Source: a virus. From it: a stretch of 18,217 nucleotides of DNA. Within the stretch, counting starts at the first letter, position 1. Every line of letters starts with the position of its first letter. Shown in pieces: positions 448-18,035 of this stretch. The stretch lies in the UHGV virus genome UHGV-0816550; one strand, written 5' to 3'. The position numbers and the translations under genes were made by a program. The notes under the pieces were generated by a model. That model did not search any database, was not told the DNA's origin, and saw only the letters and a list, made by a program, of their open reading frames with translations.

Positions 448-3400
448 ATGATCGTTTATAATAGCCAAGCACCTGATGCAGTGAATGATGTTGGGCAGTT
501 TGGTGCTAAGGAAGGCTCTATCGGAGCTTACAAGCAAGCAGCAGAATATGCAGCTGACTCCAAATATTGGGCACTGCTAGCGGAGTCTAAGTTTGGTACA
601 ATTGATGACTTGATCACTGAAGTAGAACGTCTGTATCAACAAGGTGTTTTAATGAAGCAAGATATCGAAGATCTTAAACAGGACTTTAAAGATCAAGATG
701 CTCGTTTGATGACACTTATTGCTCAGACTAACGCAGCAGTGTCGGATGCTAATAATGCCGTTGCTTTAATCAATCAGAAACTTATTGAGGTTCAGAAACA
801 GCTTGATGTTCTGTTGGGAATGTCTGTTGACGTAACTACACTTCCTCCGGGAACTCCGGCTACTGGCTCTTTTAATCCGAACACTGGTGTAATCTCTTTA
901 GGTATTCCAGAAGGTGATCCCGGAAAGGATGGTTCTGTTAAAGATTTGGATACAGCACCTACTGGTGTTCCAGAGCTAGGTGATTTAGGTTTCTATGTTG
1001 ACAAAGATGACAATACTGTCCACAAGACTACTCTAGAGAATATTGCTAACTTAATTCCATCTGTTCGTTCTGTGTCTGTTAACGGTGGAACACCTGCTGA
1101 TGGAGAAGTTAATCTGGTCCTAGACAAAACTACTGTAGGTCTTAATAACGTAGTTAACGTAGCCTCTTATAGTATCTCTCAAGTTGACGGTAAAGTGGAT
1201 GGGTATGTTAAAACCTACAGAACCAAAGCTGCTGCGGATGCTGATGTAGTTAACCGAAAGGTTGGCGAAAACATCCTAGTTTGGGAGGATTATAAATACG
1301 TCTTCTACACTGTAGCTGCCGATAAAACACTAACTCTTTCTAAAACAGAAAATAGGATTGTTACGGTAAACTCTCGAGTTCCGGATTCTACTGGTAATAT
1401 TGATATTACGATACCTACCGGTAACCCGTCTTTGTATTTGGGTGAGATGTTAATGTTCCCTTATGACCCAGCCAAACAGGTGTCATATCCGGGTGTTCTT
1501 CCAGCTGATGGTCGTCTGGTGTCTAAAGATAACGCTGCTGATTTAGGCCCATCTCTTGTCAGTGGTCAACTTCCTGTTGTTTCTGAAACTGCGTGGCAAG
1601 CTGGAGCTAAACAGTATTTCTCTTGGGGCAAGTTAGCTGATGGGGTTACTGATGCGGATTCAACAAACTTTATCAATATTCGACTTCCCGATTGGACAGG
1701 TGGTGAGGCAATTAGATCTCCAAGTAAAACAAGTGACACTCAGTATGATGGAAGACCTCTTTCTCAGGTTCCTTATGTTGTTGCTGTTAACGGTAAGATC
1801 CCTAATGAAGCAACAGGTAATGTTACAGTCACAGCATCAGATGTAGGTGCCCTTCCTACTACTGGTGGTAAGATGACAGGCCATCTAAATCTCAGCTCTG
1901 GGATTGTGTTAACAGGTACCGCGAGTTCTGGAACATCCATTAATATCGCAACTGTTGCAACTGATGGTTCCGTTCTTCTCGGTAGTGATACAGTTAAAGC
2001 TAAAGTCCTATCTTCTGATGTCCCTGTTTATGCAAGCGCTTCGGGAGAGAAGAAGTTTTACACTGAGGCTAACAAACCAACTCCTGCTGAAATAGGGGCT
2101 GCTGCTATCACCTCTGCTGGGGTTAACGGGGATATCACTAAGCTTGAAGGTTTGGTTGGCCCTACTCGACTGGGTGGAGATGCTGTAGGTGATCTAGATG
2201 CTGTTACCTTACGTCAGTTAAGAAACCAAGGGGGTGGCGGTGGTGGGGCTAGCTTGAACGGTGTCTCTAATTTCAATATTGGTGATTTCCGTTTAGTAGA
2301 CAGTCGTGCTCTTATTCACTCTAATGACGTAACTTCTGACGGTCAATTATTATCTCGTACGGCATACCCAGATCTGTGGGCTTATGCTCAAGCGTTGTCT
2401 CCTATCACAGATGCTGCTTGGCTGGCTGACCCCCAACAAAGAGGTAAATACTCTTTAGGTGATGGTTCTACTACATTCCGTGTCCCTGACCGAAATGGTG
2501 TCCAAAGCGGCTCTATCACAGGGTTGTTTGGTAGGGGTGACTCTGGTAATTCTTCTAACAGTGGTTCAGTTTCTGATGCTTCTCTGCCAAACATCACAGC
2601 TAGCTTCTCTTCAGACTTAAACGGAAAAGCTTGGTTTCCTTTCACTACAGCTGACGGGTCTATGCTTGTCTCAACATCCGGTAGTGGAACTTTTATGCCA
2701 ACTGCTGGATATGAAACTGGGACCCAAGGAAATATACTTAGGTTCGATGCATCTAGACAATCCTCAGTTTATGGTCGATATAGTAACACCCAGAACGTAA
2801 TACCTAAAAGTTTTACTGGCGTTTGGGTAATCAGGGCTACTGGTGGATTCACTGCTGCTAATACAGAGTGGTCTGTTATTAACTCCGATGCAACCAAACC
2901 TTCTACTGGGTTTACAGTGTCTGGTGGTTTAGTCCGCTCTGAGTATAAAATAGGGACCGACCTAACTTACTCAGCAACCTTGTCTGCTTATGGGCAAATT
3001 GATGGAGCCTCCGGAACATCTGGAGCTAAAATCTTAAACGGGTCTCAGGAGTGGAAATTCAACAATGCTGGAACATTAGTTCTTCCTAATGCGGTATCTC
3101 AGCTTGGTACAGAAAGACCTGATGGAGCTATCAATGTTGATGCATACCTAAGACCTAAAGATTTGGTAGCCAACTCACTGAACTCTGTCGGTGTTGCGGC
3201 TTACGAGCGAAACGGTATGAGGATGATTAACTTCAATCAAACCACTCCTGGATATGTTTCTTACTTCTCTGGGGATTGGTATGATGGCAGTTACACTCTT
3301 GGTGGCGTTCGTGGTACTGGTACAGACCTGATTCATGCTCAGATTGCGGTAAACAACGGTCAAGGTGTAGCAGCTGATTTTAAGTTCATGCCGGACGGAA

Positions 3401-3762
3401 CTGCTCAAGCAGGGAACTGGTCAAGCACTTCAGACGAAAGACTTAAAACTAACATCAAGCGTATTGAGAATCCTATTGAAAAACTTAAGGCTATCAAAGG
3501 TGTTACTTGGGAACGTCTTGATAAACTTCCTAAACCTAATGGTATTGGCTTCCTTGCGCAAGATGTGGAGAAGGTTTTCCCTGACGCTGTTAAGGCTCTC
3601 CAGTATTCAGACACTGAATTGAAAGATGGAACTATTGTGAAAGATGTTAAGTCTGTAGACACCTATGGGGTAGCTGCTGCACTGCATCACGAAGTCCTAT
3701 TAGTTTTGTTAGATAGAATAGAAGCTCTTGAGAAAGAAGTAAATGAATTAAGGGCACGGTAA
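448..3762 (+). CDS. Tail fibre / tailspike protein 1 (1104 aa) with tail-collar module and C-terminal intramolecular chaperone domain
   Basis: ATG 448 preceded by AAGGAG (437-442). Predicted coiled-coil N-terminus; poly-Gly hinge (QGGGGGGAS); collar-like motif AYPDLWAYAQAL...GDGSTTFRVPDRNG at about 2362-2500; C-terminal S-DERLKTNIKRIENPIEKLKAIKGVTWERLD...LHHEV typical of peptidase S74 self-cleaving chaperone domains. Confidence 0.9.
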   Translation: MIVYNSQAPDAVNDVGQFGAKEGSIGAYKQAAEYAADSKYWALLAESKFGTIDDLITEVERLYQQGVLMKQDIEDLKQDFKDQDARLMTLIAQTNAAVSDANNAVALINQKLIEVQKQLDVLLGMSVDVTTLPPGTPATGSFNPNTGVISLGIPEGDPGKDGSVKDLDTAPTGVPELGDLGFYVDKDDNTVHKTTLENIANLIPSVRSVSVNGGTPADGEVNLVLDKTTVGLNNVVNVASYSISQVDGKVDGYVKTYRTKAAADADVVNRKVGENILVWEDYKYVFYTVAADKTLTLSKTENRIVTVNSRVPDSTGNIDITIPTGNPSLYLGEMLMFPYDPAKQVSYPGVLPADGRLVSKDNAADLGPSLVSGQLPVVSETAWQAGAKQYFSWGKLADGVTDADSTNFINIRLPDWTGGEAIRSPSKTSDTQYDGRPLSQVPYVVAVNGKIPNEATGNVTVTASDVGALPTTGGKMTGHLNLSSGIVLTGTASSGTSINIATVATDGSVLLGSDTVKAKVLSSDVPVYASASGEKKFYTEANKPTPAEIGAAAITSAGVNGDITKLEGLVGPTRLGGDAVGDLDAVTLRQLRNQGGGGGGASLNGVSNFNIGDFRLVDSRALIHSNDVTSDGQLLSRTAYPDLWAYAQALSPITDAAWLADPQQRGKYSLGDGSTTFRVPDRNGVQSGSITGLFGRGDSGNSSNSGSVSDASLPNITASFSSDLNGKAWFPFTTADGSMLVSTSGSGTFMPTAGYETGTQGNILRFDASRQSSVYGRYSNTQNVIPKSFTGVWVIRATGGFTAANTEWSVINSDATKPSTGFTVSGGLVRSEYKIGTDLTYSATLSAYGQIDGASGTSGAKILNGSQEWKFNNAGTLVLPNAVSQLGTERPDGAINVDAYLRPKDLVANSLNSVGVAAYERNGMRMINFNQTTPGYVSYFSGDWYDGSYTLGGVRGTGTDLIHAQIAVNNGQGVAADFKFMPDGTAQAGNWSSTSDERLKTNIKRIENPIEKLKAIKGVTWERLDKLPKPNGIGFLAQDVEKVFPDAVKALQYSDTELKDGTIVKDVKSVDTYGVAAALHHEVLLVLLDRIEALEKEVNELRAR
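3430..3759 (+). other. Intramolecular chaperone (peptidase S74-like) domain of fibre 1, with predicted autocleavage near the Ser-Asp at 3430-3435
   Basis: Motif SDERLKTNI...GVTWERL...GIGFLAQDVEKVFPDAV...LHHEVLLVLLDRIEALEKEVNELR matches the conserved endosialidase/tailspike C-terminal chaperone signature ending in a coiled coil. Confidence 0.7.
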
Positions 3763-3803: not shown

Positions 3804-5900
3804 ATGTCTAGAGATTTAATGCCCAAATCTGGCATACTTCAACCATATGTTGTTGTTTCCAGAGATGCAGCTGTTGTTGGCGTTTCCACTGTAGATGGTG
3901 TTGCTGGAGCTGTAAATTTAACTGATAAATACTTGCAGAAAACAGAAGCGGCTGATGTATATCAAACTAAAACAGAAGGTGCATCTAAAGATTATGTATT
4001 AGATTCAATTAAACCTATCATGGAAGGTGCTTTGTTCAAAGCAGACCCTTTTGTAGATAATAACATCCCTTTCCGTTCTGCTGGGGCTAATGGTGTAGAG
4101 TCTGTGGATATGATGAAAGTCACCACTGATAACTCAATTAAGATTGGTAGTTATGCTTCCTCAGTTCAAGGTGTAGAAATTCACTCTGCTGGTCGTCTTC
4201 AGGTTGTTGACCAGAATGACTCTGGGGTAGAAACTAAGTACCCTGTTTATTCTAAACGATACCGCCCTGAGATTGAAGATTTACCTTTCGCTGCAATCGG
4301 AACTTATGTTAAAGATTCAAAAGGTCGTACTGTTGGTGTTACCCGTACAGGTATTAACTCTGATATCAAACAGCTTACACAGAAGGTTACTTTCACTCAG
4401 CCAGTAACTGTTGCCGATGCAGTTGGTGACTATGATGCTGTCACACTAAGACAACTCCGTAATAGTAGTGGTGGTTCTGGTGGTCCTACAATGAGCGGTA
4501 TTTCTAACTTTGGTATTGGTGATTTCAGACTAGTAGACAGCCGTGCTTTTATCCAATCAAATGATGTTACCTCAGATGGTCAGCTGTTAAATCGTGCTGA
4601 TTACCCAGAGCTTTGGGCTTACGCACAACTATTGACCCCAATTAGTGATGCAGATTGGCTGGCTGACCCCCAACAAAGAGGTAAATACTCTTTAGGTGAT
4701 GGTTCTACTACTTTCCGCGTTCCTGATAGAAATGGCGTTCAAACCGGTTCTATCTCTGGTCTGTATGCTCGCGGTGACGGTGGTAACAGCTCCAACGACG
4801 GTACTGTTCAGCAGAACGCCGCGCCTGATATTACAGGCTCCGTTGGTGCGAACATATGGAGCGTATATGGAGATCCTACGGGGGCGATGTTTGCGGCTGA
4901 TCCAGCACTTAATATTCCGTTAGGCGCAGGAACCACACCAGCGCTTTCCGTCGGCTTTCGAGCGGGCCTATCAAACGCCGCTTATGGTCGCGACAACACG
5001 ACCGAAGTCCGCACCAACAGCTTCATAGGTGTCTGGGTTATTCGTGCTAATGGTGGCTTTACTGCTGCTAATACTTCTTGGTCTGTTATTAATGGCGACA
5101 GCGTTGCTCCGGGTACTGGAACAAAGATAGTAGGTGGTGAGATTCGTTCTGACTATAATATTGGAGACTCTATGCACATAAGATCCTCTATGCGTGCTGA
5201 TGGTAACTACGGTCAACGTGGAGGTGGTGTATGGAGAATTGAGGACTATCAAGGTAAAAGTGCAGAGATATCTTTCAACCTTGGTGGTGAGTTAGTGGTC
5301 CCAACATACACCAGAGGCGTGGGGTCGGGTTTCATTGCATCTTCTAAATTAGGGTCTGATGGTCAGTGGCCTACAACATCCCCGGCGTTTATTTGTGAGC
5401 TAACAGGCAGAGTGGGTAATCCCGGAACACCGGGTGCTGTTTTCTCCATGTCTATGGCGGAGAACGTGGGTGTTGATAGCTTTGGCATACTTAGATTCTC
5501 AGGAGCAGGGGTGAATGTGGACTGGCTGTTTAACCAGTTTGGTAGTGCCATAGCTCCTGCTAACTGGGTGAGTAATTCGGATATCCGAATTAAAAAGGAT
5601 ATTGCTAAGATAGAAGAACCTCTTGAGAAGATGAAGAAACTACATGGGTACACTTGGCGACGCTTAGACGGGGGCCAGTTTGGTATTGGGTTCATTGCTC
5701 AAGAAGTTCAGGATATCTATCCAGAGTTGGTCTATACAGGCCCAGACAGAACCCTCCCTGATGGAACAGTTGTCAAAGGTGTCCTATCTCCAGATTCTAC
5801 TGGTATTGCGATTGGTCTTCACCACGAAGCTATTCTGGCTTTGATGGAACAAATCGACACCCTTAAAGCAGAGATTGCTGAACTCAAATCTAACAAATGA
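3804..5900 (+). CDS. Tail fibre / tailspike protein 2 (698 aa), paralogue of fibre 1 with collar module and C-terminal intramolecular chaperone domain
   Basis: ATG 3804 with AAGGAG at 3792-3797. Collar-like motif ADYPELWAYAQLL...GDGSTTFRVPDRNG at about 4596-4737, roughly 80% aa-identical to fibre 1 over this module; C-terminal SDIRIKKDIAKIEEPLEKMKKLHGYTWRRLD...LHHEAILALMEQIDTLKAEIAELK. Confidence 0.9.
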   Translation: MSRDLMPKSGILQPYVVVSRDAAVVGVSTVDGVAGAVNLTDKYLQKTEAADVYQTKTEGASKDYVLDSIKPIMEGALFKADPFVDNNIPFRSAGANGVESVDMMKVTTDNSIKIGSYASSVQGVEIHSAGRLQVVDQNDSGVETKYPVYSKRYRPEIEDLPFAAIGTYVKDSKGRTVGVTRTGINSDIKQLTQKVTFTQPVTVADAVGDYDAVTLRQLRNSSGGSGGPTMSGISNFGIGDFRLVDSRAFIQSNDVTSDGQLLNRADYPELWAYAQLLTPISDADWLADPQQRGKYSLGDGSTTFRVPDRNGVQTGSISGLYARGDGGNSSNDGTVQQNAAPDITGSVGANIWSVYGDPTGAMFAADPALNIPLGAGTTPALSVGFRAGLSNAAYGRDNTTEVRTNSFIGVWVIRANGGFTAANTSWSVINGDSVAPGTGTKIVGGEIRSDYNIGDSMHIRSSMRADGNYGQRGGGVWRIEDYQGKSAEISFNLGGELVVPTYTRGVGSGFIASSKLGSDGQWPTTSPAFICELTGRVGNPGTPGAVFSMSMAENVGVDSFGILRFSGAGVNVDWLFNQFGSAIAPANWVSNSDIRIKKDIAKIEEPLEKMKKLHGYTWRRLDGGQFGIGFIAQEVQDIYPELVYTGPDRTLPDGTVVKGVLSPDSTGIAIGLHHEAILALMEQIDTLKAEIAELKSNK
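5577..5897 (+). other. Intramolecular chaperone (peptidase S74-like) domain of fibre 2
   Basis: NSDIRIKKDI...HGYTWRRL...GIGFIAQEVQDIYPELV...GLHHEAIL plus terminal coiled coil; homologous to the fibre 1 C-terminus but divergent (I estimate about 40% identity by eye). Confidence 0.7.
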
Positions 5901-5903
5901 GAT

Positions 5904-5922
5904 AAGCCCCTTCGGGGGCTTT
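5904..5922 (+). terminator. Stem-loop AAGCCCC-TTCG-GGGGCTT; candidate terminator or processing hairpin after fibre 2
   Basis: Perfect 7-bp stem with UUCG tetraloop 4 nt after the TGA stop; same architecture as the hairpin at 3773-3791; weak U-tract. Confidence 0.45.
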
Positions 5923-5992
5923 AGTAGTAAGTACCCTTAGTAAGTAATGAAACTAATATATCCCAAGAGGTTAATATATAGGAGACACTCAA

Positions 5993-6211
5993 ATGAAAAT
6001 GATGAAACAGGCTGCATATGGTTTAATCTGTTTAGTTGCAGGCGTTGTGGTATCAACCGCAGTTCCTGTAAGCGCAGTTCATCCATTAGTAACTGTCCCT
6101 GCTCCAGTAGAGAAGCTTAGCTCTCAATGCAAGCAGAGAACAATTCAAAATAACTTAGTTGTTATTTGCCCCGATGCTGAATCTAACGCTCTGAGAAAGA
6201 TACTACCTTAA
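5993..6211 (+). CDS. Small membrane protein (72 aa), putative holin or lysis accessory protein
   Basis: ATG 5993 with AGGAG at 5980-5984. One N-terminal hydrophobic segment (AAYGLICLVAGVVVSTAV), a proline-rich stretch and a charged C-terminal tail; sits immediately upstream of a lysozyme that has no signal or anchor sequence. Confidence 0.5.
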   Translation: MKMMKQAAYGLICLVAGVVVSTAVPVSAVHPLVTVPAPVEKLSSQCKQRTIQNNLVVICPDAESNALRKILP

Positions 6212-6240
6212 TTTAAAGGGACTACAAAAGGAGGTTAGGA

Positions 6241-6732
6241 ATGGATAACGCCGCATTGCCACCTGTACAACTAAACTTAAGCCCAGCTGGAATGGAATTC
6301 ATCATGAAGCATGAGGGTATGAGAACCAAGGCTTATAAAGATTCCGCAGGTATATGGACTATATGTGTAGGGGCTACGCGCGATATGAATGGTTATCCGG
6401 TTAGACAAGGATTAACGTATTCTATAGAGGATTGTCTAGCTCTGCTAGATAGAGACACACAAGACTCTGTTCGTGCTACTCAAAAGAACATAAAGGTTCC
6501 TTTACTAGTTCATGAGTTTGATGCACTCACTTCTTTCAACTTCAATGTTGGCAGTGGTGCTTTGAGCACATCTAAGTTAAGGAAGGTTATCAATGGAGAA
6601 GTTAAAGGGGATGTATATTCCGAATTTCTTCGTTGGGATAAAATAACGGTCAAGGGAGAGAAGCAGAGAAGTCAGGGTCTTCATAATAGAAGGGTTGCAG
6701 AAGCTGATCTTTACACCGAAGGTAAATATTAA
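6241..6732 (+). CDS. Endolysin, T4-type lysozyme (glycoside hydrolase family 24)
   Basis: ATG 6241 with AAAGGAGG at 6226-6233. HEG-MRTKAYKD-SAGIWTICVG reproduces the T4 lysozyme catalytic spacing Glu-(9)-Asp-(6)-Thr (T4 E11/D20/T26; here E25/D34/T40). No N-terminal hydrophobic segment, so it would be holin-dependent. Confidence 0.9.
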   Translation: MDNAALPPVQLNLSPAGMEFIMKHEGMRTKAYKDSAGIWTICVGATRDMNGYPVRQGLTYSIEDCLALLDRDTQDSVRATQKNIKVPLLVHEFDALTSFNFNVGSGALSTSKLRKVINGEVKGDVYSEFLRWDKITVKGEKQRSQGLHNRRVAEADLYTEGKY

Positions 6733-6744
6733 TGGAGGTGCCTT

Positions 6745-7548
6745 TTGGCTATCGAAACTAATGCGGTAGTTATTACCGACTTAAACCCGCTCTATCCTAG
6801 AGACAGGGATTACATCTACGAAGGGGCGGCTCAAATCCGCCTCATTAAACAAACGTTACAGAACACATTCCCCAATGTTACAGAACCGGTTGATATAGAT
6901 TCTGATACCTTTAAGATTATGTCAGAGAAGCTTAAGTTTACTGGTGATGCAATGGATGTTGGTGGTCTTATGATCAAGAATGTTACTCCGGGAACTGGTG
7001 ACAAGGATGTTGTTACTAAAGGCCAGATGGAAGCGTTCATGAAGAACTGGATGGAGAATAAGCTCTATCGAATTGGTTCTTACTATATCACTGAAGAAGA
7101 CATTAACCCAGGTGATTCAATCTCCTTAGGGTTTGGTTCTTGGGCTAAAGTGACTGGTGTCATTATGGGTACTGGTGTAGTAAACCCTGATGGAACTGTT
7201 CCTAATGCTCAGAGAGTTGAGTTCCAAGCAGGTGGTACTGGTGGTCGTGTCTTCAATACTATTCGAACTGAGAACGTACCTTTGATGACAGTTAATGGCT
7301 CCAGCTTCTCTCTATCCAGTAATACTCACAGTCACAATATGGTGTTTGGTCGTGGGGATGCTAGTGGTCATAACAGCTCACCAAACTGGTATAGTCCGGG
7401 TGGTGGTTATAGTCAGAGAACTGATAATGACACACATACTCATACAATCTCTGGTAGTGTAAGTCTTGGTCGTGATGATATCTCTCGTCAACCTATTAAC
7501 ACTTTGCCACCATTCAGAGCAGCTCACATTTGGAGACGTATTAGCTAA
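6745..7548 (+). CDS. Short tail fibre-like / receptor-binding tail protein (267 aa) with two HxH motifs
   Basis: TTG start at 6745 with GGAGG at 6734-6738; no in-frame ATG nearby. C-terminal region NTHSHNMVFGRGDASGHNSS...DTHTHTISG has HxH motifs and an FGRGD-x-G-x-NSS motif also present in both fibres, recalling the T4 gp12 type collar and metal-binding tip region. Confidence 0.7.
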   Translation: MAIETNAVVITDLNPLYPRDRDYIYEGAAQIRLIKQTLQNTFPNVTEPVDIDSDTFKIMSEKLKFTGDAMDVGGLMIKNVTPGTGDKDVVTKGQMEAFMKNWMENKLYRIGSYYITEEDINPGDSISLGFGSWAKVTGVIMGTGVVNPDGTVPNAQRVEFQAGGTGGRVFNTIRTENVPLMTVNGSSFSLSSNTHSHNMVFGRGDASGHNSSPNWYSPGGGYSQRTDNDTHTHTISGSVSLGRDDISRQPINTLPPFRAAHIWRRIS

Positions 7549-7557
7549 GGAGGAATT

Positions 7558-10500
7558 ATGGCGCTGTATCCAATAAAGTCACTAGGTGCTGTAGGCGTTA
7601 TCGCTGATCAGGCTCCGACAGACTTAGCTCCTAATGCTTTCACTAATGCTATAAATGCTCGATTTGTTGAGCAGAGAGTATTTAAGACGGGGGGCAATGC
7701 CCCTCTTTCTTATGTAGATGAAGATAAGGATTTAACCCCTCTGTCTTTCGTTTCTATGCCTTTCGATTATTATAGCGCAGGTAATAGCTTTCTTGTTGTA
7801 GGTACTAATAAGAAGTTATATAAACTGACAGATGAAAGCTTGACTGATATTAGCCGTAAGGTTGCTACAGTCACTAAGAAGGCTTCTGCCTCAATTAAGA
7901 TTTATCCAGTTGTTTCTCAGATCGTTCCTAAAGAATCAACTATCTCAATGAACTTCAATCAGACCAAGAATCTAGAGGTTTCTCTTCTCCCTGCTGATGC
8001 TAACAATACCGATCTTATTTGGGAGGTTAGTAACTCATCCTATGGAAGTATTACGGTAGACCCTAGTGACTCTAAACTTGCTACTCTAACATCTTTTGAG
8101 AAAGAGGGTAATCTTGTAGTAACTATCTCTACTGCCAATGAATCCGTAGTGGCTCAGATTGCTGTTAATATTATCGATGGCGATTCAGGCATCTTCTTGA
8201 GTCAAGACACTGTTACAATTCGTAAAGGAGGGACTACTACTCTCACGGCTGTTACTGGCAAGACTCCTGTAACTTGGTCCAGCAATAACGCTTCTATTGT
8301 ATCTGTAACCCCTAATGCCAACTCTTTAACTGCTGTCATTACAGCGAATGGAGAAGGTAATGTAACAATCACTGCTGATAACGGGACTAAGACTGCTTCT
8401 TGTGAGATTGTTTCTATCCCTCAGATTGATAGTATCTCTTTAAGCCAGTCAGATGTTACTGTGAGTAGAGGTTCTCAGTATATTTTAACTGCCACCCTTT
8501 CTCCTGCTAACGCCCCTAATCAAAACATTACTTGGACCTCTTCTAACCCAAATATTGCAACAGTATCAGGGACTAGCACACAAGGGACGATCAACGCTCT
8601 GCTTGCTGGTTTTACTGAGATTACAGCTACCACTGAAGAAGGTAACAGAGTTGCTGTCTGTACTGTACGTGTGGATTTAGCTGGAAGGACAATGAGAACA
8701 AGTGCTATGGCATTTGCCGCTCCTGTGTCAGAGTCAGTAGAAACTCAAGAGGAAGAAGTAGTAACTCCTCCTGAAAGTGAAGAGACGGTTTATTTTGCTG
8801 AGCCTACATCCGGTATTGATACGTCAGGGATGTATGAAGGTAACAACTTCTACGACTACTCTAACGTGAATGACATTGAAGGTTTTGCAAGAGCTTCTTT
8901 ACTGGCAACCCCTTTGTCGTCTGTAACCTTAGATATTGTCAGCGCCTCCCTTGATGTTGGTGAAGAGATTGTCATTACAGCCACAGCTTCTCCAGAAGGT
9001 GAGTACTCTTATCAGTGGTCTGTTGATAAAACTGGTTATGTTTCTACAACTTCAGTTACTGGTAAATCTATCAAACTGGTTGCTCTTCGTAAAGGAGAGA
9101 TTAACGTAACATGTACTGTCAGCCAGATGACTCAGAAAGATTATGATGCTTTTGATGACTACCCTTGGTATCACGCTGTTATCTCTAACTGTGCAGTTGC
9201 TACAACTCACTATGAAACTCCTCAGGTAAAAGAATTCGAATCAGAATACTTTGTAGACCTCCCGGGGTGGGGTGAGCAAACAGTTGTTGATAATGATGGA
9301 AACCCTTCAGTCAAGAAGTTTAACTGGAAATGTGAGAGAGTGAGATCTTTTAACAACCGTCTTTTTGCTCTGAATATGAGAGAGGCTAATGCTTCTGGTG
9401 TTACCACTAACTATCCGCTTCGTCTTCGTTGGTCTAACTTTGCCAATGAGAACAAGGCTCCTACACTGTGGGATGACTTTGCCTATGATCGAGTTGTGTC
9501 TTCGGACTTAGCTTCTAACATCGTAGGGCAGACTCAGGCTCTAGAGAATGGGTATGCTGGTTACATCGACTTAGCAGATTCTAATGGTAGCTTGATTGAT
9601 ATCCTACCTCTTAAAGACTACTTGTTTGTTTATACAGAGTTTGAAACGTATATTGGTTCTCCGACTAATAACACATACCAACCTCTGATGTTCAAGAAGC
9701 TCTTTAACGACTCTGGTATCCTTGCTCCCGAGTGTGTGGTTGAAGTAGAAGGCAGTCACTTCGTAGTTACTCAGAACGATGTAATCTTACACAATGGCGC
9801 AACCAAGAAGTCAATTGCATCTAACCGTGTCAAGAACATGCTGATTAACGAGGTGTGTCTGGTTAATCCTCTAGCAACTCGAGTACACTTGCATCAGGAT
9901 AAGAAAGAAGTTTGGGTTCTGTATGTAGGTCCGGGAGAACCAAAAGAAAGCTTCGCTTGCACCAAAGCTGCTGTATGGAATTATGAGTTTGATACCTGGT
10001 CTTTCCGTACTATCCCATATGCTCAGTGTATTGGTCTGGTTGATCCTCCTGTTTTAGAAAGAGGTCCAATCTGGTCTGACTTCCAAGAAATCACTTGGGA
10101 TGATCCGTCTATTAAAGAACTCGTTTGGAGAAAGGATGCAACAAACTTTAGACAGAGGGTTACGATAGTAGGTTCGTTCTTGAGGGGATTCTATCAGGTG
10201 GATGTAGGTGCTCTTGATTATTTCTATGACAGGCTAAACGATGTTGTTATAGAGAAGCCTCTGGAAATGAGGTTGGAGAGGACTGGTATAGATTTTGATA
10301 ATGTGACGAATGAGTGGAATCAGAAGCATATTAATAGATTCCGACCTCAGACAACTGGCTCAGGTACTTACATATTTGAAGCTGGTGGCAGTCAATTCTC
10401 AAATGAATATGGACACCCACATACATCTAAGACTTATACAATCGGTGTTGACAGGCATGTCTCGGTGAGACTGAACCATCCATACCTTTTCTATAATGTT

Positions 10501-10575
10501 ATAGATAATGATGTTAACAGTAATGCTGCTATCAATGGTTTGACGATAGAGTTTGCTGTTGGCGGGCGGAGATAA
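7558..10575 (+). CDS. Large virion structural protein (1005 aa) with four internal Ig-like (Big_2-type) domains
   Basis: ATG 7558 with AAGGAGG at 7547-7553. Four roughly 80-aa repeats between about 7903 and 9120 with the Big_2 pattern (for example TISMNFNQTKNLEVSLLPADANNTDLIWEVSNSSYGSITVD; VTIRKGGTTTLTAVTGKTPVTWSSNNASIVSV; VTVSRGSQYILTATLSPANAPNQNITWTSSNPNIATV). Flanking N- and C-terminal regions not recognised. Confidence 0.8.
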   Translation: MALYPIKSLGAVGVIADQAPTDLAPNAFTNAINARFVEQRVFKTGGNAPLSYVDEDKDLTPLSFVSMPFDYYSAGNSFLVVGTNKKLYKLTDESLTDISRKVATVTKKASASIKIYPVVSQIVPKESTISMNFNQTKNLEVSLLPADANNTDLIWEVSNSSYGSITVDPSDSKLATLTSFEKEGNLVVTISTANESVVAQIAVNIIDGDSGIFLSQDTVTIRKGGTTTLTAVTGKTPVTWSSNNASIVSVTPNANSLTAVITANGEGNVTITADNGTKTASCEIVSIPQIDSISLSQSDVTVSRGSQYILTATLSPANAPNQNITWTSSNPNIATVSGTSTQGTINALLAGFTEITATTEEGNRVAVCTVRVDLAGRTMRTSAMAFAAPVSESVETQEEEVVTPPESEETVYFAEPTSGIDTSGMYEGNNFYDYSNVNDIEGFARASLLATPLSSVTLDIVSASLDVGEEIVITATASPEGEYSYQWSVDKTGYVSTTSVTGKSIKLVALRKGEINVTCTVSQMTQKDYDAFDDYPWYHAVISNCAVATTHYETPQVKEFESEYFVDLPGWGEQTVVDNDGNPSVKKFNWKCERVRSFNNRLFALNMREANASGVTTNYPLRLRWSNFANENKAPTLWDDFAYDRVVSSDLASNIVGQTQALENGYAGYIDLADSNGSLIDILPLKDYLFVYTEFETYIGSPTNNTYQPLMFKKLFNDSGILAPECVVEVEGSHFVVTQNDVILHNGATKKSIASNRVKNMLINEVCLVNPLATRVHLHQDKKEVWVLYVGPGEPKESFACTKAAVWNYEFDTWSFRTIPYAQCIGLVDPPVLERGPIWSDFQEITWDDPSIKELVWRKDATNFRQRVTIVGSFLRGFYQVDVGALDYFYDRLNDVVIEKPLEMRLERTGIDFDNVTNEWNQKHINRFRPQTTGSGTYIFEAGGSQFSNEYGHPHTSKTYTIGVDRHVSVRLNHPYLFYNVIDNDVNSNAAINGLTIEFAVGGRR

Positions 10576-10579
10576 CAAC

Positions 10580-10608
10580 AAGGGGCTTCGTGCCCCTTTT
10601 ATTGTTTT
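10580..10608 (+). terminator. Rho-independent terminator-like hairpin AAGGGGC-TTCGT-GCCCCTT followed by a U-rich tract
   Basis: 7-bp GC-rich stem at 10580-10586 / 10592-10598, then TTATTGTTTT; lies 5 nt after the TAA stop at 10573-10575 and before the next gene's GGAGGA site. Confidence 0.6.
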
Positions 10609-10618
10609 GGAGGAACTT

Positions 10619-11587
10619 ATGGGTGCAGGTGGTTTTCGTAAGAATACTGGTCGCAACAATACCACACTCCCGTACAACGTTGGGTTTCTCAATAATGTAC
10701 AGGACACAGAAACATATAACGTAGCCGTATATGATGAGCTACAAAAAGTCAGTACAGCTACTAACCAAATGTTCCAAGCTATAGATGAAATTCACGAAGA
10801 GATTGATGTTCGTATTAAAGCTCTTAATGCAATGAATCTACAATTTGATGAGCTTGAGAATAGAATTACTACAGAGATAGAAACAGCTATTGCAGATATC
10901 CAAACCCAGATGGGGAACCTGTCCACTGAGGATATTTGGGATAATTCTGTTCAACCTCCTGTGAAGCTGGAAAGCACTGTATCTGGTTTTAAGACTAGCA
11001 TCGAAGGTAACACAACTAAGATTCAGACAGTAGAAGGTATTGTTAACGATCAAGGTCAAGAGATTGCTCTTGTTCAGACAGAACTGCAAAATATCAACGG
11101 AAGCCTTTCTCAGTATATGAAACTCTCTGAGTATGAAGCTACGTGGGGTGTTAACTCTACAGTCAACGGAAGATATGCTGGGGTCAAGTTAACTAACAAC
11201 GGAACAAACAGTCAATTCCAAGTAACAGCTAACAAATTTATTGTTGGTGATGGCAGCTCTGGGAATACTCCCTTCGTATTTGAGGGTGGGCGAGCTAGGA
11301 TGGAATTCGCTGATATAAAGAATGTCAATATCACAACAGCTCAGATTGCTAACGCTAGAATCCAATGGGCACAGATTGATAACGTATCCATCTCCAACGC
11401 CCAGATTCAGAACTTGTCAGCGGATAAGATTACTGCTGGTTCTATGTGGGGTTCTAACTGGAGACTTACTGTTGGTGGTGACTTTGTTATGGGTGGTACA
11501 GGTGGAGCGCAGTTGTGGATGAATGGTAACAGAATAGACTTCTATGATGGAAGTGGTGCTCTTAGAATCAGGATAGGGAGTTGGTAA
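10619..11587 (+). CDS. Tail protein (322 aa) with coiled-coil region and J-like beta-repeat C-terminal domain
   Basis: ATG 10619 with GGAGGA at 10609-10614; the ORF-track start at 10553 is a TTG inside the previous gene and terminator. Heptad-like central region; C-terminal repeats NITTAQIANARIQWAQIDNVSISNAQIQNLSADKITAGS resemble tail tip / host-specificity protein repeats. Confidence 0.75.
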   Translation: MGAGGFRKNTGRNNTTLPYNVGFLNNVQDTETYNVAVYDELQKVSTATNQMFQAIDEIHEEIDVRIKALNAMNLQFDELENRITTEIETAIADIQTQMGNLSTEDIWDNSVQPPVKLESTVSGFKTSIEGNTTKIQTVEGIVNDQGQEIALVQTELQNINGSLSQYMKLSEYEATWGVNSTVNGRYAGVKLTNNGTNSQFQVTANKFIVGDGSSGNTPFVFEGGRARMEFADIKNVNITTAQIANARIQWAQIDNVSISNAQIQNLSADKITAGSMWGSNWRLTVGGDFVMGGTGGAQLWMNGNRIDFYDGSGALRIRIGSW

Positions 11588-11588
11588 T

Positions 11589-12620
11589 ATGGCATATGGA
11601 ATATGGACACAACCAGTAGGGCCGGGGCCAGCAACCCCCGCTCCCTTATTTATTGATAGCGGAAGTACTTTCCCTCAGTTCAAGAATAGTATAAGAGGGA
11701 GTTTTAACTTTAATGGAGCTGGGAGATCTTTCCCTATTAGTGGATGGGATGGCAGTGGTCAGATAGTTATTGTTCCCACCGGTTCTTTATGCTGGCAATG
11801 GGAAGTCCCTCCTAACCTAGTTCCTGATGTTTATTGTGTGAATAATATCTACGTAGAAAACAGTTCCTCTTTTAGAGTTACTCTGAATCAGAACCCCGGC
11901 AGTAACCCCTTATTTGACTGTGGGTTCAACGTATATCAAATATGGCCTAGAGCGGATAGGAATTACGGAATTACCTTTTCTAATACAGCAGACTACTTCT
12001 CGATATCTGATAGTGGGGTCGTCGGTCAATGTATTTGGGCTTGGCAGGGGACCATAAACAATGCCCTTCAGATACCAAATATCGGTGGGTTCAATATGAC
12101 CAATGCTGTTGTGTTTGCTAATTGGTCTGATGGAGGGATAGGACTATCTTATACTTCTGATGACAGGGTTATTCGTGTTTATCAGAACAGACCTTACATA
12201 AACGGCAACACTAATGAGGGTGGTTCTGTGTTTGCTAGAATTGCAGTATTCTGCAATGGAGCAGGAGTTCCGGAACATAACGGAGGTTTGAATATTTACT
12301 CTCCGGGTACCACGCAATGTGTCTTCTCTACTAATAGAACACCTTTCACTGTGGATACTTTTATAGGCTCAGGAGGTGGTAACACTGGAATGTCATACCC
12401 TATGATACCTCTTACCTCTGGAATAGGTGCGATAAAAGGCCAAGGCAGTGGATGGAGGTATCAGCAAATGAGATCTCACACAATGAGTGGTTCTAGCATA
12501 GGAACTGGTTATGGAAGATATCTATTTCAATGGGATCAAAATTACGACCTAGGAGCTGATACTGTAGTTAATTTATCAGTTCCTGTAATAAATGCAGCTA
12601 AGGTTTTTGCTGGACTATAA
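11589..12620 (+). CDS. Hypothetical virion protein (343 aa), Gly/Asn/Trp-rich
   Basis: ATG 11589 lies 1 nt after the TAA of the previous gene (TAATATG), suggesting translational coupling. Long ORF with composition like neighbouring structural genes; no family motif recognised. Confidence 0.7.
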   Translation: MAYGIWTQPVGPGPATPAPLFIDSGSTFPQFKNSIRGSFNFNGAGRSFPISGWDGSGQIVIVPTGSLCWQWEVPPNLVPDVYCVNNIYVENSSSFRVTLNQNPGSNPLFDCGFNVYQIWPRADRNYGITFSNTADYFSISDSGVVGQCIWAWQGTINNALQIPNIGGFNMTNAVVFANWSDGGIGLSYTSDDRVIRVYQNRPYINGNTNEGGSVFARIAVFCNGAGVPEHNGGLNIYSPGTTQCVFSTNRTPFTVDTFIGSGGGNTGMSYPMIPLTSGIGAIKGQGSGWRYQQMRSHTMSGSSIGTGYGRYLFQWDQNYDLGADTVVNLSVPVINAAKVFAGL

Positions 12621-12632
12621 CAAGGAGATATT

Positions 12633-13415
12633 ATGGCAATTAAAATGGGTATTGAAGAACTAGACCCAATGGTTCAACAGGCTTCAAAGAAGTATGGGAT
12701 TCCTGCTGCTTTGATTCATGCTGTAATCCAAAGAGAGTCTAGTGGTCGTCCTACGGTAGCCTCTGGAACTGGTCCTGTAGGTTTAATGCAGATCAGTAAA
12801 GGGTTGGCTAAAGACTACGGTTACAAACTAGAAGACAGACTTGACCCAGCAAAGAATATTGATATGGGTGCTCGTTATATTAGAGATAACTTAAAGGCTT
12901 TTAATGGTGATGTTAAGAAAGCAATGGTTGGTTATTCAGAAGGTATAGGTGGAGCTAAGCAAATGTTTGCCGGTAAAAAGGGATTTACACCTCAAGCCCT
13001 TGACTCAATGAACAACAAACACTTTCTTCCTTTCTATGATGATGCAGCTTCTCAGATTGCTAACCCTATTGGAGCTTTGCAAGCTGTTCAACCAGTCAAT
13101 CAGTTTAGTCCGGATACTCTTGATAGGGAGAAGGCTGCTCAAGCCCCAACTCAGGCAGAAATTACTGCTTCTAAGACTGGTGCTTTAGGTGGCAATCCAG
13201 TAGAGTTTTACTCTGATGAAGTGCAGGAAGGAGAAAACCAGAAGCCTCAACAGAACTTTGGTAATGCAGTATTAGGGGTAGCTGCTATGCTTGCCGGTAA
13301 ACCTCCTACTTCTCAAACAGTTCAGAGGGCAAGTGCACCACATGCAGCAGGTTCTCAGTACAGTCCACAAACACAAGCAGTGCTCAGACGTTTAGCTAGC
13401 ATTGGTGTAAAGTAA
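12633..13415 (+). CDS. Virion-associated lytic transglycosylase (SLT-domain) protein, 260 aa
   Basis: ATG 12633 with AAGGAG at 12623-12627. N-terminal signature AVIQRESSGRPTVASGTGPVGLMQIS, with the candidate catalytic Glu35 at codon 12735-12737; placed beside putative ejection proteins, as with peptidoglycan-cutting internal virion proteins. Confidence 0.8.
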   Translation: MAIKMGIEELDPMVQQASKKYGIPAALIHAVIQRESSGRPTVASGTGPVGLMQISKGLAKDYGYKLEDRLDPAKNIDMGARYIRDNLKAFNGDVKKAMVGYSEGIGGAKQMFAGKKGFTPQALDSMNNKHFLPFYDDAASQIANPIGALQAVQPVNQFSPDTLDREKAAQAPTQAEITASKTGALGGNPVEFYSDEVQEGENQKPQQNFGNAVLGVAAMLAGKPPTSQTVQRASAPHAAGSQYSPQTQAVLRRLASIGVK

Positions 13416-13434
13416 TAATCTTTAAGGAGGACTT

Positions 13435-14487
13435 ATGTCTTTATTTGGAAAATCAGCTTCTAGCAAAACCACAGTGGCCCCTTCCTCTCAGGTTGATGCC
13501 CTGCTGAAGCAGATTGTTGCTAATGCTCAGAATATGCAGAACAACGATCCGGGATTCATCTCCCAACAGCTGGCTGGGTTTAATGGCAACCAACAAGGTG
13601 CTCTGAACAACTTAGCAGCTTCTACTACTCAGAAGCAATTGGCTGATATGTACACGCCTCGTACACAGCAAGGGTTGGACCAATTAAACTCTCTTGCACA
13701 GCAGTATCAGAATATTGTCAATGGTGGTGGTCTAACTGCTGATGGTGTTAATAACTTCAGTAAAGGATTGAATAACTCAGCTCTTGCTCAAGCGACTAGT
13801 AAGGCAGCTTCCAATGTATCCCTCGGAAATGGTTCTGACTCTGGTTCTCTTCGTAGGGCTGCGGCTCAAGGGGCTGCTTTGAACAGTGCTAATACAAACT
13901 TAGCCCGTACTATCAGTGGCAAGAATATGGGAATCAGTGCTCTCCAACAAGACCAAAACTTTCAGAGGGGTTTACTTGGTGCTCAGTCAGGATTGGCTGG
14001 ACAGAATCTCAACCTTGGTGCTCAAGGTGTTCAGGCAACTCAACAAGCTATCCAGAATCAACTCATGGCTGGTAATCTACAACAGCAACAAGCCCAAGCT
14101 CAAGCTGATATTAATTGGCAGAACGCTATTGGCTCTCAACAGTATGGGTGGAATCAGCTTAACAATCAGCTTAATGTATTAAACAGTGTAAGTCCAATGG
14201 CTGGGTACACGATTAAGAATGCTGCTCCGGGAGTCAATACTGGACAACAGCTCCTAGGTGCTGGTATCACTGGTTTAGGTATTGCAGGTCGTATGGGTGC
14301 TTTCTCTCCTAACCAACAGACTCAGAATGCTTGGAGTTCCTATAACAACTCAGGTGGGCAATCTGGAATGGCTGGACCTATGATTGGAGGTTCTAATCTT
14401 TCTCAACAGAGAGGTCAGTCTAACTGGTTATCCACAGCAGGTAGTAATATCTTAGGTGGTGTCTTAGGGGCATTTGGAGTAAACTAA
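13435..14487 (+). CDS. Q/N/G-rich low-complexity virion protein (350 aa) with C-terminal glycine-zipper segment; putative ejection/internal protein
   Basis: ATG 13435 with AAGGAGG at 13425-13431. Strongly biased composition (poly-Q, N, G, A, S) and a C-terminal small-residue hydrophobic segment (GSNILGGVLGAFGV). Confidence 0.75.
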   Translation: MSLFGKSASSKTTVAPSSQVDALLKQIVANAQNMQNNDPGFISQQLAGFNGNQQGALNNLAASTTQKQLADMYTPRTQQGLDQLNSLAQQYQNIVNGGGLTADGVNNFSKGLNNSALAQATSKAASNVSLGNGSDSGSLRRAAAQGAALNSANTNLARTISGKNMGISALQQDQNFQRGLLGAQSGLAGQNLNLGAQGVQATQQAIQNQLMAGNLQQQQAQAQADINWQNAIGSQQYGWNQLNNQLNVLNSVSPMAGYTIKNAAPGVNTGQQLLGAGITGLGIAGRMGAFSPNQQTQNAWSSYNNSGGQSGMAGPMIGGSNLSQQRGQSNWLSTAGSNILGGVLGAFGVN

Positions 14488-14499
14488 AGGAGATTTGAT

Positions 14500-15469
14500 A
14501 TGGGACTTTTCGGAGGAGGGGGTAGTAAAACTACTTCCCAAATGATTCGCCCTGAATATATTCAACAGTATATTGACCAGCTTAACCAGCAGATTGGTAA
14601 TACTAGTTCTAGGGGATTATGTCTATCGTGACAACGTAGGATTTAATAACAACCAGACAGAAGCCCTTAATAATTTGGCTCAATCCGGTGCTTTAGGGAC
14701 TCTCTCGCAGCAATATATGGATGCAGCAGGTCAAGGGTTGGGTTATCTGGATAATGCCTATAAAGGCTACCAGAGCCTCTCTGGACAAGGTGGGATTACT
14801 GGAGAACAGATTGGTGCTCTCGCTGGTCAACTGTATGACGATGATGCTGTGCAAGCAGCCATTACCGCTAATAATGAACAGGTTCAACAGAACTTGGCAC
14901 GTAATGCTCTTCCTCAATTAGCTCAACAGTTTGCTGGTCAGCAAGGTTCAGGTGCTCGTATGGCTAAATCTTTTGCCCAAGGTGATGCTCTGAATCAGAT
15001 GCAAGGCCAAGCAACAGATATTACCAACAGTGCCTATAACTCGGCTATTAGCCAAGCTGAAAGCATCCTCTCTGGTAATAGACAGAATCAAGCAGCTGCT
15101 CTCTCAGGTCTTTCTAATATTGGTTCTAACCTTTCTAACCTAGGTCAGCAGGGTGCTAATTTGTCTCAACAGCAAATAATGAATCAATGGAATGCAGGAT
15201 TGCAGCAACAACAGCAACAACAGAATGAATATGATAATGCCTACCAGAATGCTCAGAACGCAGCTAATTGGGGATGGCAAGATATCAATAACCAACTCGG
15301 TGCAGCAGGTGTACTTAACGGTGCTCTCGGACAAACTACAACTACTAAAACATCTGGAGGTAGGGGTGGCTTCTTAGGAGGGGGTATGAGTGGTGCAGCA
15401 GCAGGCTCTTCCTTTGGACCTTGGGGTGCATTAGCTGGGGGTGTAATCGGTGGGTTGGCTAGTACTTAA
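14500..15469 (+). CDS. Q/N/G-rich paralogue of the preceding protein, interrupted by an apparent +1 frame change near the G4 run at 14612-14615 (sequencing indel, pseudogene or recoding)
   Basis: ATG 14500 with AAGGAG at 14487-14492 opens a frame that stops at TGA 14629-14631 after 43 codons. The long downstream frame (open from 14546 to 15469) has no ATG start with a ribosome-binding site. Both parts align to the upstream paralogue (MSLFGKSASSKTT vs MGLFGGGGSKTT; GFNGNQQGALNNL vs GFNNNQTEALNNL) only if one base is removed. Confidence 0.6.
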
Positions 15470-15482
15470 TTAGGAGACAAAT

Positions 15483-17967: not shown

Positions 17968-18035
17968 AACGTCTCCTTTTATAAATAAAAATGTCCTACC
18001 CCCTATATACATTATAGAAGGCAGGACTTAGGTCT

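What the first reader, a model, noticed from the sequence alone, without database searches (positions are those of the whole stretch)
6745..7548. Short-fibre-like protein with HxH motifs and a GRGD-x-G-x-NSS motif shared with both long fibres
The C-terminal part contains THSH and THTH motifs flanking FGRGDASGHNSS. The same short motif occurs in fibre 1 (FGRGDSGNSSNSG) and fibre 2 (ARGDGGNSSNDG) directly after their collar modules. HxH motifs coordinate metal ions in T4 short and long tail fibre tips, so this may be a metal-binding receptor-binding tip. The gene also uses a TTG start and sits between the lysis cassette and the large Ig-domain gene.
Basis: partly seen in the sequence, partly recalled or inferred. 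Interest (0 to 1): 0.55.

Follow-up and report, generated by a model that had tools for sequence, protein, structure and literature searches.

The report
Kuravirus short tail fibre, already solved
This gene encodes the short tail fibre of a phiEco32/SU10-like E. coli phage; its structure, role in the tail nozzle and paired histidine motifs are already published, and the short motif it seems to share with the long fibres is no better than a chance match.

Summary
ORF 6745-7548 (267 aa, TTG start) differs by one residue from gp16 of Escherichia phage SU10. That protein is the short tail fibre modelled in PDB 7Z47/7Z4B/7Z4F. The 2022 paper (PMC9509320) already describes its three domains and its docking on the nozzle protein. 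It likens the fibre to the T4 gp12 and gp37 tips and suggests that two His pairs bind Fe2+. A 2025 paper (PMC11990801) again notes the HxH motifs.

The claim of a shared motif does not hold up:
- The two long fibres are paralogues, so their copies count as one occurrence.
- Local alignment of gp16 with either fibre scores no better than shuffled sequence.
- The codons differ between the three copies.
- In the long fibres the motif lies in the conserved collar-domain core. In gp16 it lies in the most variable segment of the family, between the two conserved HxH pairs.

That variable apex, clamped by two conserved His pairs, is the one modest addition made here. It fits a receptor-contact tip. 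Verdict: already known, low interest.

The parts
6733..6738 (+). Ribosome-binding site GGAGGT, 6 nt upstream of the TTG start
   Evidence: Sequence read directly.
6745..7548 (+). Short tail fibre gene, the orthologue of SU10 gp16 (267 aa, TTG start, stop at 7546-7548)
   Evidence: 99.3% identical to SU10 gp16. Matches PDB 7Z47_I at E=7e-182 and phrog_6465 'tail protein' at E=4e-113.
6745..7038 (+). Proximal helical domain, aa 1-98. It is the part that attaches the fibre to the nozzle protein.
   Evidence: Built at 3.8 A in SU10. Profile positions 1-64 also match the Pseudomonas phage Pa223 tail fibre 9NXK at E=4e-14.
6811..6819 (+). Y23-I24-Y25 clamp that grips the nozzle protein's dock loop
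   Evidence: Residues present in the window. Their role is described for SU10.
7057..7314 (+). Central domain core, T4 gp10_C-like (about aa 105-190), including the motif AGGTGGRVFNTIRTENVP
   Evidence: Pfam PF21939 Gp10_C at 41 bits against a cut-off of 27, E=4.8e-10, residues 105-266. Pairwise score 95 against the T4 gp10 C-terminus, z=8.4, reached by 0 of 1000 shuffles.
7327..7335 (+). First HxH motif (H195-S-H197), a putative metal ligand layer
   Evidence: Invariant in all 21 homologues. The SU10 paper proposes Fe2+ binding.
7336..7428 (+). Hypervariable apex between the two HxH motifs (aa 198-228, with W214, Y215, Y221). This is the probable receptor-contact tip.
   Evidence: Mean column entropy is 2.32, against 0.87-1.63 in the other segments. 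At least four unrelated tip sequence types occur in orthologues. The monomer model shows a hairpin, strands 189-203 and 221-234, with a low-confidence turn at 204-216.
7345..7380 (+). The flagged motif FGRGDASGHNSS (aa 201-212)
   Evidence: Kept only in relatives at 73% identity or more and replaced in more distant orthologues. In cultured phages this tip occurs only in 99 Gordonclarkvirinae records.
7435..7443 (+). Second HxH motif (H231-T-H233)
   Evidence: Kept in at least 90% of homologues; P0024 lacks it.
7450..7545 (+). C-terminal return strand (aa 236-267; GRDDISRQPINTLPPFRAAHIWRRIS) that closes the gp10_C-like domain
   Evidence: Conserved, entropy 0.94. Aligns with the T4 gp10 C-terminus ...NIQPYITVYRWIRIA.
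2527..2562 (+). Fibre 1 motif FGRGDSGNSSNS (aa 694-705), inside the gp12-like/collar domain
   Evidence: Conserved across the long-fibre family. Aligns with FLRGWDDGRG of members that carry PF07484. The same motif, FGRGDGGASS, occurs in the DT57C fibre protein in PDB 8HQZ_d.
4764..4799 (+). Fibre 2 motif YARGDGGNSSND (aa 321-332), the paralogous copy of the fibre 1 motif
   Evidence: Fibres 1 and 2 are 41% identical over 654 aa.
7558..10575 (+). Nozzle protein gene (the 'large Ig-domain gene', orthologue of SU10 gp17), the docking partner of the short fibre
   Evidence: Big_2 domains, phrog_14417 over its full length, and the same position as SU10_017.
10072..10128 (+). Short-fibre dock loop of the nozzle protein, with W839, W847 and W857
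   Evidence: All three Trp are present at those positions. Their role is described for SU10.
5993..6732 (+). Lysis cassette upstream: holin (5993-6211) and endolysin (6241-6732)
   Evidence: phrog_11161 holin, and Phage_lysozyme PF00959 at E=4e-32.

Best explanation
The ORF encodes the short tail fibre of a Kuravirus (phiEco32/SU10-like podophage of E. coli).

Shown for the near-identical SU10 protein:
- Three chains form a straight fibre about 210 A long.
- The N-terminal helical domain (aa 1-98) grips a loop of the nozzle protein that carries three tryptophans, using Y23-I24-Y25.
- After the long fibres bind the cell, the six short fibres swing by 135 degrees. They then alternate with the straightened nozzle proteins to form a tail extension of about 28 nm that points the fibre tips at the outer membrane.

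Inferred:
- Residues about 105-190 and 236-267 form a domain of the T4 gp10 C-terminal type.
- A beta-hairpin from each chain (about 189-234) projects from that domain and makes a short needle.
- The needle is clamped at two levels by HxH motifs (H195/H197 and H231/H233). Their six histidines per level would bind a metal ion on the trimer axis, as in the T4 gp37 tip.
- The variable apex between the clamps (198-228) contacts the secondary receptor on the cell surface. It includes RGDASGHNSSPNWYSPGGGY.

The resemblance of FGRGDASGHNSS to a long-fibre motif is coincidental, or at most a recurring strand-and-turn pattern of this type of fold.
For: Identity:
- 99.3% identical to SU10 gp16, and E=7e-182 to PDB 7Z47_I.
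- Same gene order as SU10.
- The Y23-I24-Y25 clamp and the nozzle residues W839/W847/W857 are all present.
- The mechanism, domain description and proposed Fe2+ binding come from PMC9509320. HxH ion coordination is restated in PMC11990801.

Fold:
- Pfam Gp10_C at 41 bits against a cut-off of 27.
- The A1 profile hits T4 gp10 structures 2FKK and 5HX2.
- Pairwise z=8.4 against the T4 gp10 C-terminus.

His clamps and variable apex:
- H195/H197 are invariant, H231/H233 are kept in at least 90% of sequences, and residues 198-228 are the most variable segment.
- An orthologue with a different tip sits in the same gene order: lysozyme, fibre, Big_2 nozzle, tail needle.
- The hairpin is seen in the monomer model.
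Against: - No experiment has shown a metal in this protein. The SU10 tip was an AlphaFold-multimer model fitted into a 15 A map.
- My own monomer model is poor, with mean pLDDT 57. Its Foldseek hits to T4 gp10 (E 0.1-0.2) and to JUB59 6OV6 (E 2.7) are weak.
- I could not model a trimer.
- The receptor is unknown. PMC11990801 suggests a 'more mechanical role', because the protein is highly conserved among cultured Gordonclarkvirinae.
- One homologue, P0024, lacks the second HxH.
Confidence: 0.9

Rival explanations
1. One reading: GRGD-x-G-x-NSS is a functional element, for receptor or metal binding, that the short fibre and both long fibres share by common descent or by exchange of a tip module.
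For: The strings are present in all three proteins. A profile of the long-fibre family gives a weak local match to gp16 194-213, at 1.0 bit and E=0.07 in a four-sequence search.
Against: - The two long-fibre copies are one paralogous occurrence.
- Alignment scores are no better than shuffles, BLASTP finds nothing, and hhalign does not align the motif.
- The codons differ.
- The long fibres have no HxH motif at all.
- In the long fibres the motif is conserved collar core, aligned with FLRGWDDGRG of members that carry PF07484. In gp16 it lies in the hypervariable apex and is lost in orthologues below about 73% identity.
- By the significant gp10 alignment, the gp16 segment at the collar-core position is GVIMGTGVVNPDG (138-150), not residues 201-212.
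Confidence: 0.05
2. The motif resemblance reflects a recurring structural element of the gp10/gp12 collar-type fold: a hydrophobic strand ending in F/V-G-R/x-G, followed by a turn rich in Gly, Asp, Asn and Ser. The element occurs more than once in the fold, and there is no shared specific function.
For: - The best local match of gp16 to T4 gp12 pairs VFGRGDASG-HNSSPN with the gp12 collar motif LFVRGSGRGSHLTNPN.
- T4 gp10 has two such segments, KVLVGWNEDISDPN and SVIVGGCQYDPDESGP. The second aligns with the gp16 motif.
Against: The gp16-gp12 match scores 30, below the shuffle mean of 37. The internal-repeat idea therefore rests on inspection by eye and not on statistics.
Confidence: 0.25
3. The protein is mainly a mechanical part of the nozzle, a gp10-like structural strut. 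On this view the HxH-clamped tip only stabilises the trimer and has no specific receptor.
For: - The sequence-level family is T4 gp10_C, a baseplate structural protein.
- PMC11990801 argues for a mechanical role, because the protein is highly conserved across Gordonclarkvirinae, with 163 of 267 sites identical.
- The tip is 55-100% conserved across the 99 cultured records.
Against: - Across the wider family the apex is the most variable part, and whole tip types are swapped between orthologues in the same gene order. That pattern is typical of receptor contact.
- The SU10 tomography model places the tips against the outer membrane.
Confidence: 0.2

Closest known systems
Escherichia phage SU10 gp16, short tail fibre protein (PDB 7Z47, 7Z4B, 7Z4F; PMC9509320)
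   Same: Same length and 266 of 267 residues identical. Same gene neighbourhood, N-terminal clamp residues, nozzle dock-loop tryptophans and both HxH pairs.
   Different: One substitution, T151 here against S in SU10. The paper numbers the histidines 194/196/230/232, whereas counting along the sequence gives 195/197/231/233.
T4 gp10 C-terminal domain (Pfam PF21939 Gp10_C; PDB 2FKK)
   Same: Significant sequence similarity over the whole domain. Shared features are the Y-x-IG start, GFGSW, AGGTGG...ENxP and the C-terminal strand ...P-x-x-x-x-x-W-x-R-I.
   Different: T4 gp10 has no HxH motifs and is a baseplate wedge protein that anchors other fibres. In gp16 the segment after ENVP is turned into a His-clamped needle.
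T4 gp12 short tail fibre tip (Zn2+ bound by H445/H447) and T4 gp37 long tail fibre tip (Fe2+ bound by seven HxH layers)
   Same: A trimeric fibre tip with HxH motifs, with the same role proposed for the SU10 orthologue on structural grounds. T4 gp12 does carry HKH at 445-447. Like gp12, the fibre is deployed second, after the long fibres bind.
   Different: No detectable sequence similarity to T4 gp12 and no Pfam Collar hit. There are only two HxH layers, against seven in gp37. The virion is a podovirus, and the fibre becomes part of the tail nozzle. Metal binding is not shown.
gp12-like receptor-binding domain of T-shaped or branched lateral fibres (DT57C fibre protein in PDB 8HQZ_d; phiEco32 gp14/gp15; PMC11990801, PMC8217332)
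   Same: This is the family of the two long fibres in the window, and it carries the conserved F/Y-G/A-RGD-GG-x-S motif.
   Different: It is not the family of gp16. The motif sits in the collar core upstream of PNITG, and these domains have no HxH.

Membership tests
Kuravirus/Gordonclarkvirinae short tail fibre (SU10 gp16 family, phrog_6465) | Full-length sequence similarity to SU10 gp16 | tested here: met
   99.3% identity over 267 aa; E=7e-182 to 7Z47_I; phrog_6465 at E=4e-113 over positions 1-281 of 281.
Kuravirus/Gordonclarkvirinae short tail fibre (SU10 gp16 family, phrog_6465) | Gene placed between the endolysin and the nozzle (Big_2) gene | tested here: met
   The window ORF order matches SU10_014 to SU10_018 and the orthologue locus L003.
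Kuravirus/Gordonclarkvirinae short tail fibre (SU10 gp16 family, phrog_6465) | Docking interface: Y23-I24-Y25 in the fibre and W839/W847/W857 in the nozzle protein | tested here: met
   All six residues are present at those positions. The interface itself is defined in PMC9509320.
Kuravirus/Gordonclarkvirinae short tail fibre (SU10 gp16 family, phrog_6465) | Presence in the virion as six trimers | not testable with these tools
   Shown for SU10 by cryo-EM and inferred here from near-identity.
Pfam PF21939 Gp10_C (T4 baseplate gp10 C-terminal domain) | Score above the Pfam gathering threshold across the domain | tested here: met
   41 bits against a cut-off of 27, residues 105-266 on profile positions 3-139 of 139. 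Pairwise z=8.4 against T4 gp10.
Pfam PF07484 Phage Tail Collar / T4 gp12 tip | Sequence match to the Collar profile or to T4 gp12 | tested here: not met
   No Collar hit for gp16 at E<=0.1. The A1 profile does not hit T4 gp12, and the pairwise score is below the shuffle mean. The long fibres do give weak Collar hits, at 20.9 and 17.7 bits, below the cut-off of 24.
Pfam PF07484 Phage Tail Collar / T4 gp12 tip | Structural similarity of the central domain to the gp12 tip (PDB 1PDI) | tested here: inconclusive
   Stated in PMC9509320 from an AlphaFold-multimer model. My monomer model has pLDDT 57, and its Foldseek search of the PDB returns the SU10 entries, then weak hits to gp10 and 6OV6, with no gp12 hit.
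HxH metal-clamped fibre tips (T4 gp37 type) | Conserved HxH motifs in the distal fibre segment | tested here: met
   H195/H197 are invariant, and H231/H233 are kept in at least 90% of 21 homologues.
HxH metal-clamped fibre tips (T4 gp37 type) | Six histidines, three HxH motifs, meeting on the trimer axis around a metal ion | not testable with these tools
No experimental density exists at the tip, which was fitted into a 15 A map.

The most novel reading that the evidence does not exclude
The segment between the two conserved HxH clamps (aa 198-228) is an exchangeable specificity cassette of the Kuravirus-type short fibre. Orthologues in the same gene order carry at least four unrelated apex sequences. 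On this reading the short fibre would select the secondary receptor and would not be a purely mechanical, invariant nozzle part, as was suggested from cultured isolates. The RGD...NSS...NWY apex would then be the E. coli-specific version.
Probability: 0.4. Interest if true: 0.3.

Novelty: already known. Interest (0 to 1): 0.1.

Why it matters
It matters little beyond annotation. The gene should be labelled 'short tail fibre protein (SU10 gp16-like)', not 'baseplate' or 'hypothetical', which many database records still use.

Two questions remain open and can be tested: whether the two His layers really hold a metal, and what the tip binds. Both have already been raised in the literature. The variable apex between conserved His clamps gives defined boundaries for tip-swap experiments on host range in a phage group that is used for therapy.

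Tried and rejected
1. AlphaFold2 monomer model from the 21-sequence alignment A1. Mean pLDDT was 57 and pTM 0.29, too poor to judge histidine geometry. A Foldseek search of the PDB with it gave only the SU10 entries at significant E-values. Hits to Pa223 9NXK, T4 gp10 and JUB59 6OV6 were weak.
2. A linked-trimer construct (residues 86-267 three times, joined by Gly/Ser linkers, with 12 paired homologues; A3) to test whether the histidines cluster on the axis.
3. Profile-profile comparison (hhalign) of the gp16 family with the long-fibre collar family. It aligned only the GDxDAVTxxQ neck and the first collar strand, with probability 1%.
4. HMM profiles of both families against T4 gp10, gp11 and gp12. 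Only the gp16 profile against gp10 was significant.
5. I first recalled from memory that T4 gp12 ends in a run of HxH repeats. Reading the real sequence showed a single HKH at 445-447, so I dropped that line of argument.
6. RGD as an integrin-type adhesion motif. I rejected this as irrelevant to a bacterial host, and the RGD is lost in orthologues.
7. Recent gene conversion between the fibre genes. I rejected this because the codons differ across the motif.

Full report
**What the window is.** Window 6000-8000 is 97.5-98% identical to the best-matching records, among them phiEco32, SU10 and SkaterBoy Bas90. In all, 99 Escherichia and Shigella phage records match it. These are prolate-headed podophages of the genus Kuravirus, subfamily Gordonclarkvirinae. 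From holin to the ejection-protein genes, the gene order matches SU10_014 to SU10_023.

**Checking the observation.**
- ORF 6745-7548 translates to 267 aa. It contains THSH (H195, H197), FGRGDASGHNSS (201-212) and THTH (H231, H233).
- TTG at 6745 is the first possible start after the in-frame stop at 6730-6732, and GGAGGT precedes it.
- The deposited SU10 chain starts at the same residue, and residues 3-6 are built in the cryo-EM model. The TTG start is therefore sound.
- The upstream genes are a holin and a phage lysozyme. The downstream gene is a 1005-aa Big_2 protein.
- Fibre 1 has FGRGDSGNSSNSG from residue 694, and fibre 2 has ARGDGGNSSNDG from residue 322. Each starts about ten residues after a weak Pfam Collar hit.

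**What the protein is.**
- It is 99.3% identical to SU10 gp16 and differs only at residue 151. That protein is present in PDB 7Z47, 7Z4B and 7Z4F.
- The SU10 paper (PMC9509320) identifies it as the short tail fibre: six trimers, each about 210 A long.
- The first 98 residues were built at 3.8 A. They attach to a dock loop of the nozzle protein gp17 through Y23-I24-Y25, against W839, W847 and W857. All six residues are present in the window.
- After the cell is bound, the short fibres rotate by 135 degrees. They then alternate with the straightened nozzle domains to form a 277 A nozzle.
- The central and distal domains were AlphaFold-multimer models fitted into 7 A and 15 A maps. The paper likens them to the T4 gp12 tip, the T4 gp37 tip and the JUB59 receptor-binding protein.
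Metal binding is still an inference.

**What I could add on the fold.**
- At sequence level the C-terminal two-thirds belongs to Pfam Gp10_C, at 41 bits against a cut-off of 27, residues 105-266.
- A profile of 21 homologues hits the T4 gp10 structures 2FKK and 5HX2.
- A pairwise alignment with the T4 gp10 C-terminus scores 95, with z=8.4 and 0 of 1000 shuffles reaching it.
- There is no hit to the Pfam Collar family or to T4 gp12.
- The gp10 alignment fixes the register. AGGTGGRVFNTIRTENVP of gp16 lines up with AGGTGGSTSVTLENANLP of gp10. The C-terminal strand ...PPFRAAHIWRRIS lines up with ...QPYITVYRWIRIA.
- The part between these landmarks, about residues 185-235, is the part that gp16 has turned into a His-clamped projection.
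- My monomer model is poor (pLDDT 57), but it shows this part as a long hairpin. The strands are 189-203 and 221-234, and the turn at 204-216 has low confidence.
- A trimer could not be modelled here.

**Conservation.**
- In 21 homologues down to 33% identity, H195 and H197 are invariant. H231 and H233 are kept in at least 90%.
- The 31 residues between the two motifs are the most variable part of the protein. Their mean column entropy is 2.32, against 0.87-1.63 elsewhere.
- RGDASGHNSS survives only in relatives at 73% identity or more. Orthologues at 50-71% identity carry unrelated apex sequences, such as ANVRLSIDDRHFYVESVDGRYPN.
- One of these orthologues sits in the same gene order on an 88.7 kb contig: lysozyme, fibre, Big_2 nozzle, tail needle, DUF6453, SLT.
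- Among cultured phages this apex type occurs only in the 99 Gordonclarkvirinae records.
- Conserved His clamps around a variable apex are what a receptor-contact tip would look like. This is my inference, and it goes a little beyond the 'mechanical role' suggested from cultured isolates.

**The shared motif.**
- Fibres 1 and 2 are paralogues, 41% identical over 654 aa and nearly identical around the motif. They count as one occurrence.
- gp16 shows no significant similarity to either fibre by BLASTP.
- The best Smith-Waterman score is 44 against each fibre, equal to what shuffled gp16 gives. The motif alignment alone scores 36 and 29.
- The codons differ between the three copies.
- hhalign between the two family alignments pairs only the GDxDAVTxxQ neck and the first collar strand.
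- In the long-fibre family the motif is conserved. It aligns with FLRGWDDGRG of members that carry PF07484, and PNITG follows it.
- The same motif is present in the solved DT57C fibre protein, PDB 8HQZ_d.
- In the long fibres it is therefore the core of the collar or gp12-like domain, which the literature already calls the Gp12-like RBD1 of T-shaped fibres.
- By the gp10 register, the gp16 segment at that position is GVIMGTGVVNPDG (138-150), not residues 201-212.
- The long fibres contain no HxH at all.
- I conclude that the match is chance in Gly/Ser/Asn-rich fibre sequence. At most it is a recurring strand-and-turn pattern of this fold. For example, gp16 VFGRGDASGHNSSPN also resembles the T4 gp12 collar motif LFVRGSGRGSHLTNPN, but not significantly.

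**Verdict.** The motif link to the long fibres is not supported. Novelty: already known. Interest: low.

Noticed in passing
window 16272-18217 (junction at 16271/16272): The right end of the window is inverted relative to SU10. Window 5900-16271 is collinear with SU10 14369-24745. Window 16627-18217 then matches SU10 27014 back to 25424 on the opposite strand. None of the 99 matching phage records covers at least 80% of the 15400-18217 query in one place. The breakpoint truncates the gp23 homologue (15483-16274, 263 aa against 551) and the gp24 homologue (minus-strand ORF 16264-18012). This is either a real inversion that disrupts two ejection-protein genes or an assembly artefact.
   Followed up: partly
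window 448-3762 (fibre 1) and 3804-5900 (fibre 2): Fibre 1 (1104 aa) carries its own distal module: a gp12-like/collar domain, a second binding domain and a Peptidase_S74 chaperone. This module is paralogous to the whole of fibre 2. The SU10 proximal fibre gp12 is 786 aa and ends instead in Phage_tail_C_2. The closest solved relative is the DT57C fibre protein in PDB 8HQZ_d, which fits the branched-fibre arrangement described for DT57C and phiEco32. No phage record covers 80% or more of this locus; the best is pEC-N1203-2Af.1, with 76% coverage at 92.9% identity.
   Followed up: partly
window 7327-7335 and 7435-7443: The SU10 paper numbers the fibre histidines 194/196 and 230/232. Counting from Met1 gives 195/197 and 231/233. 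The paper's Y23-I24-Y25 numbering does agree with the sequence, so the paper's histidine numbers appear to be off by one.
   Followed up: yes
window 6745-6936 (gp16 aa 1-64): The N-terminal anchor segment is a module shared with other phage fibres. The family profile matches the Pseudomonas phage Pa223 tail fibre (PDB 9NXK) at E=4e-14, and gp13 of PDB 8ZKK at E=1e-3, over the first 45-64 residues only.
   Followed up: no
window 10553-11587: The mechanically listed TTG start at 10553 for the tail-needle gene (SU10 gp18 homologue, Phage_Tail_Tip) overlaps the end of the nozzle gene and is probably not the real start. phrog_16534 matches from residue 23, and the SU10 annotation gives 322 aa. Both point to the ATG at 10619.
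   Followed up: partly
L003 2319-3131 and alignment A1: Metagenomic orthologues of the short fibre at 50-73% identity lie on contigs of 86-89 kb, larger than the 67-78 kb genomes of described Gordonclarkvirinae. At least the 88.7 kb contig that was inspected has the same tail gene order. They may represent an undescribed sister group.
   Followed up: no
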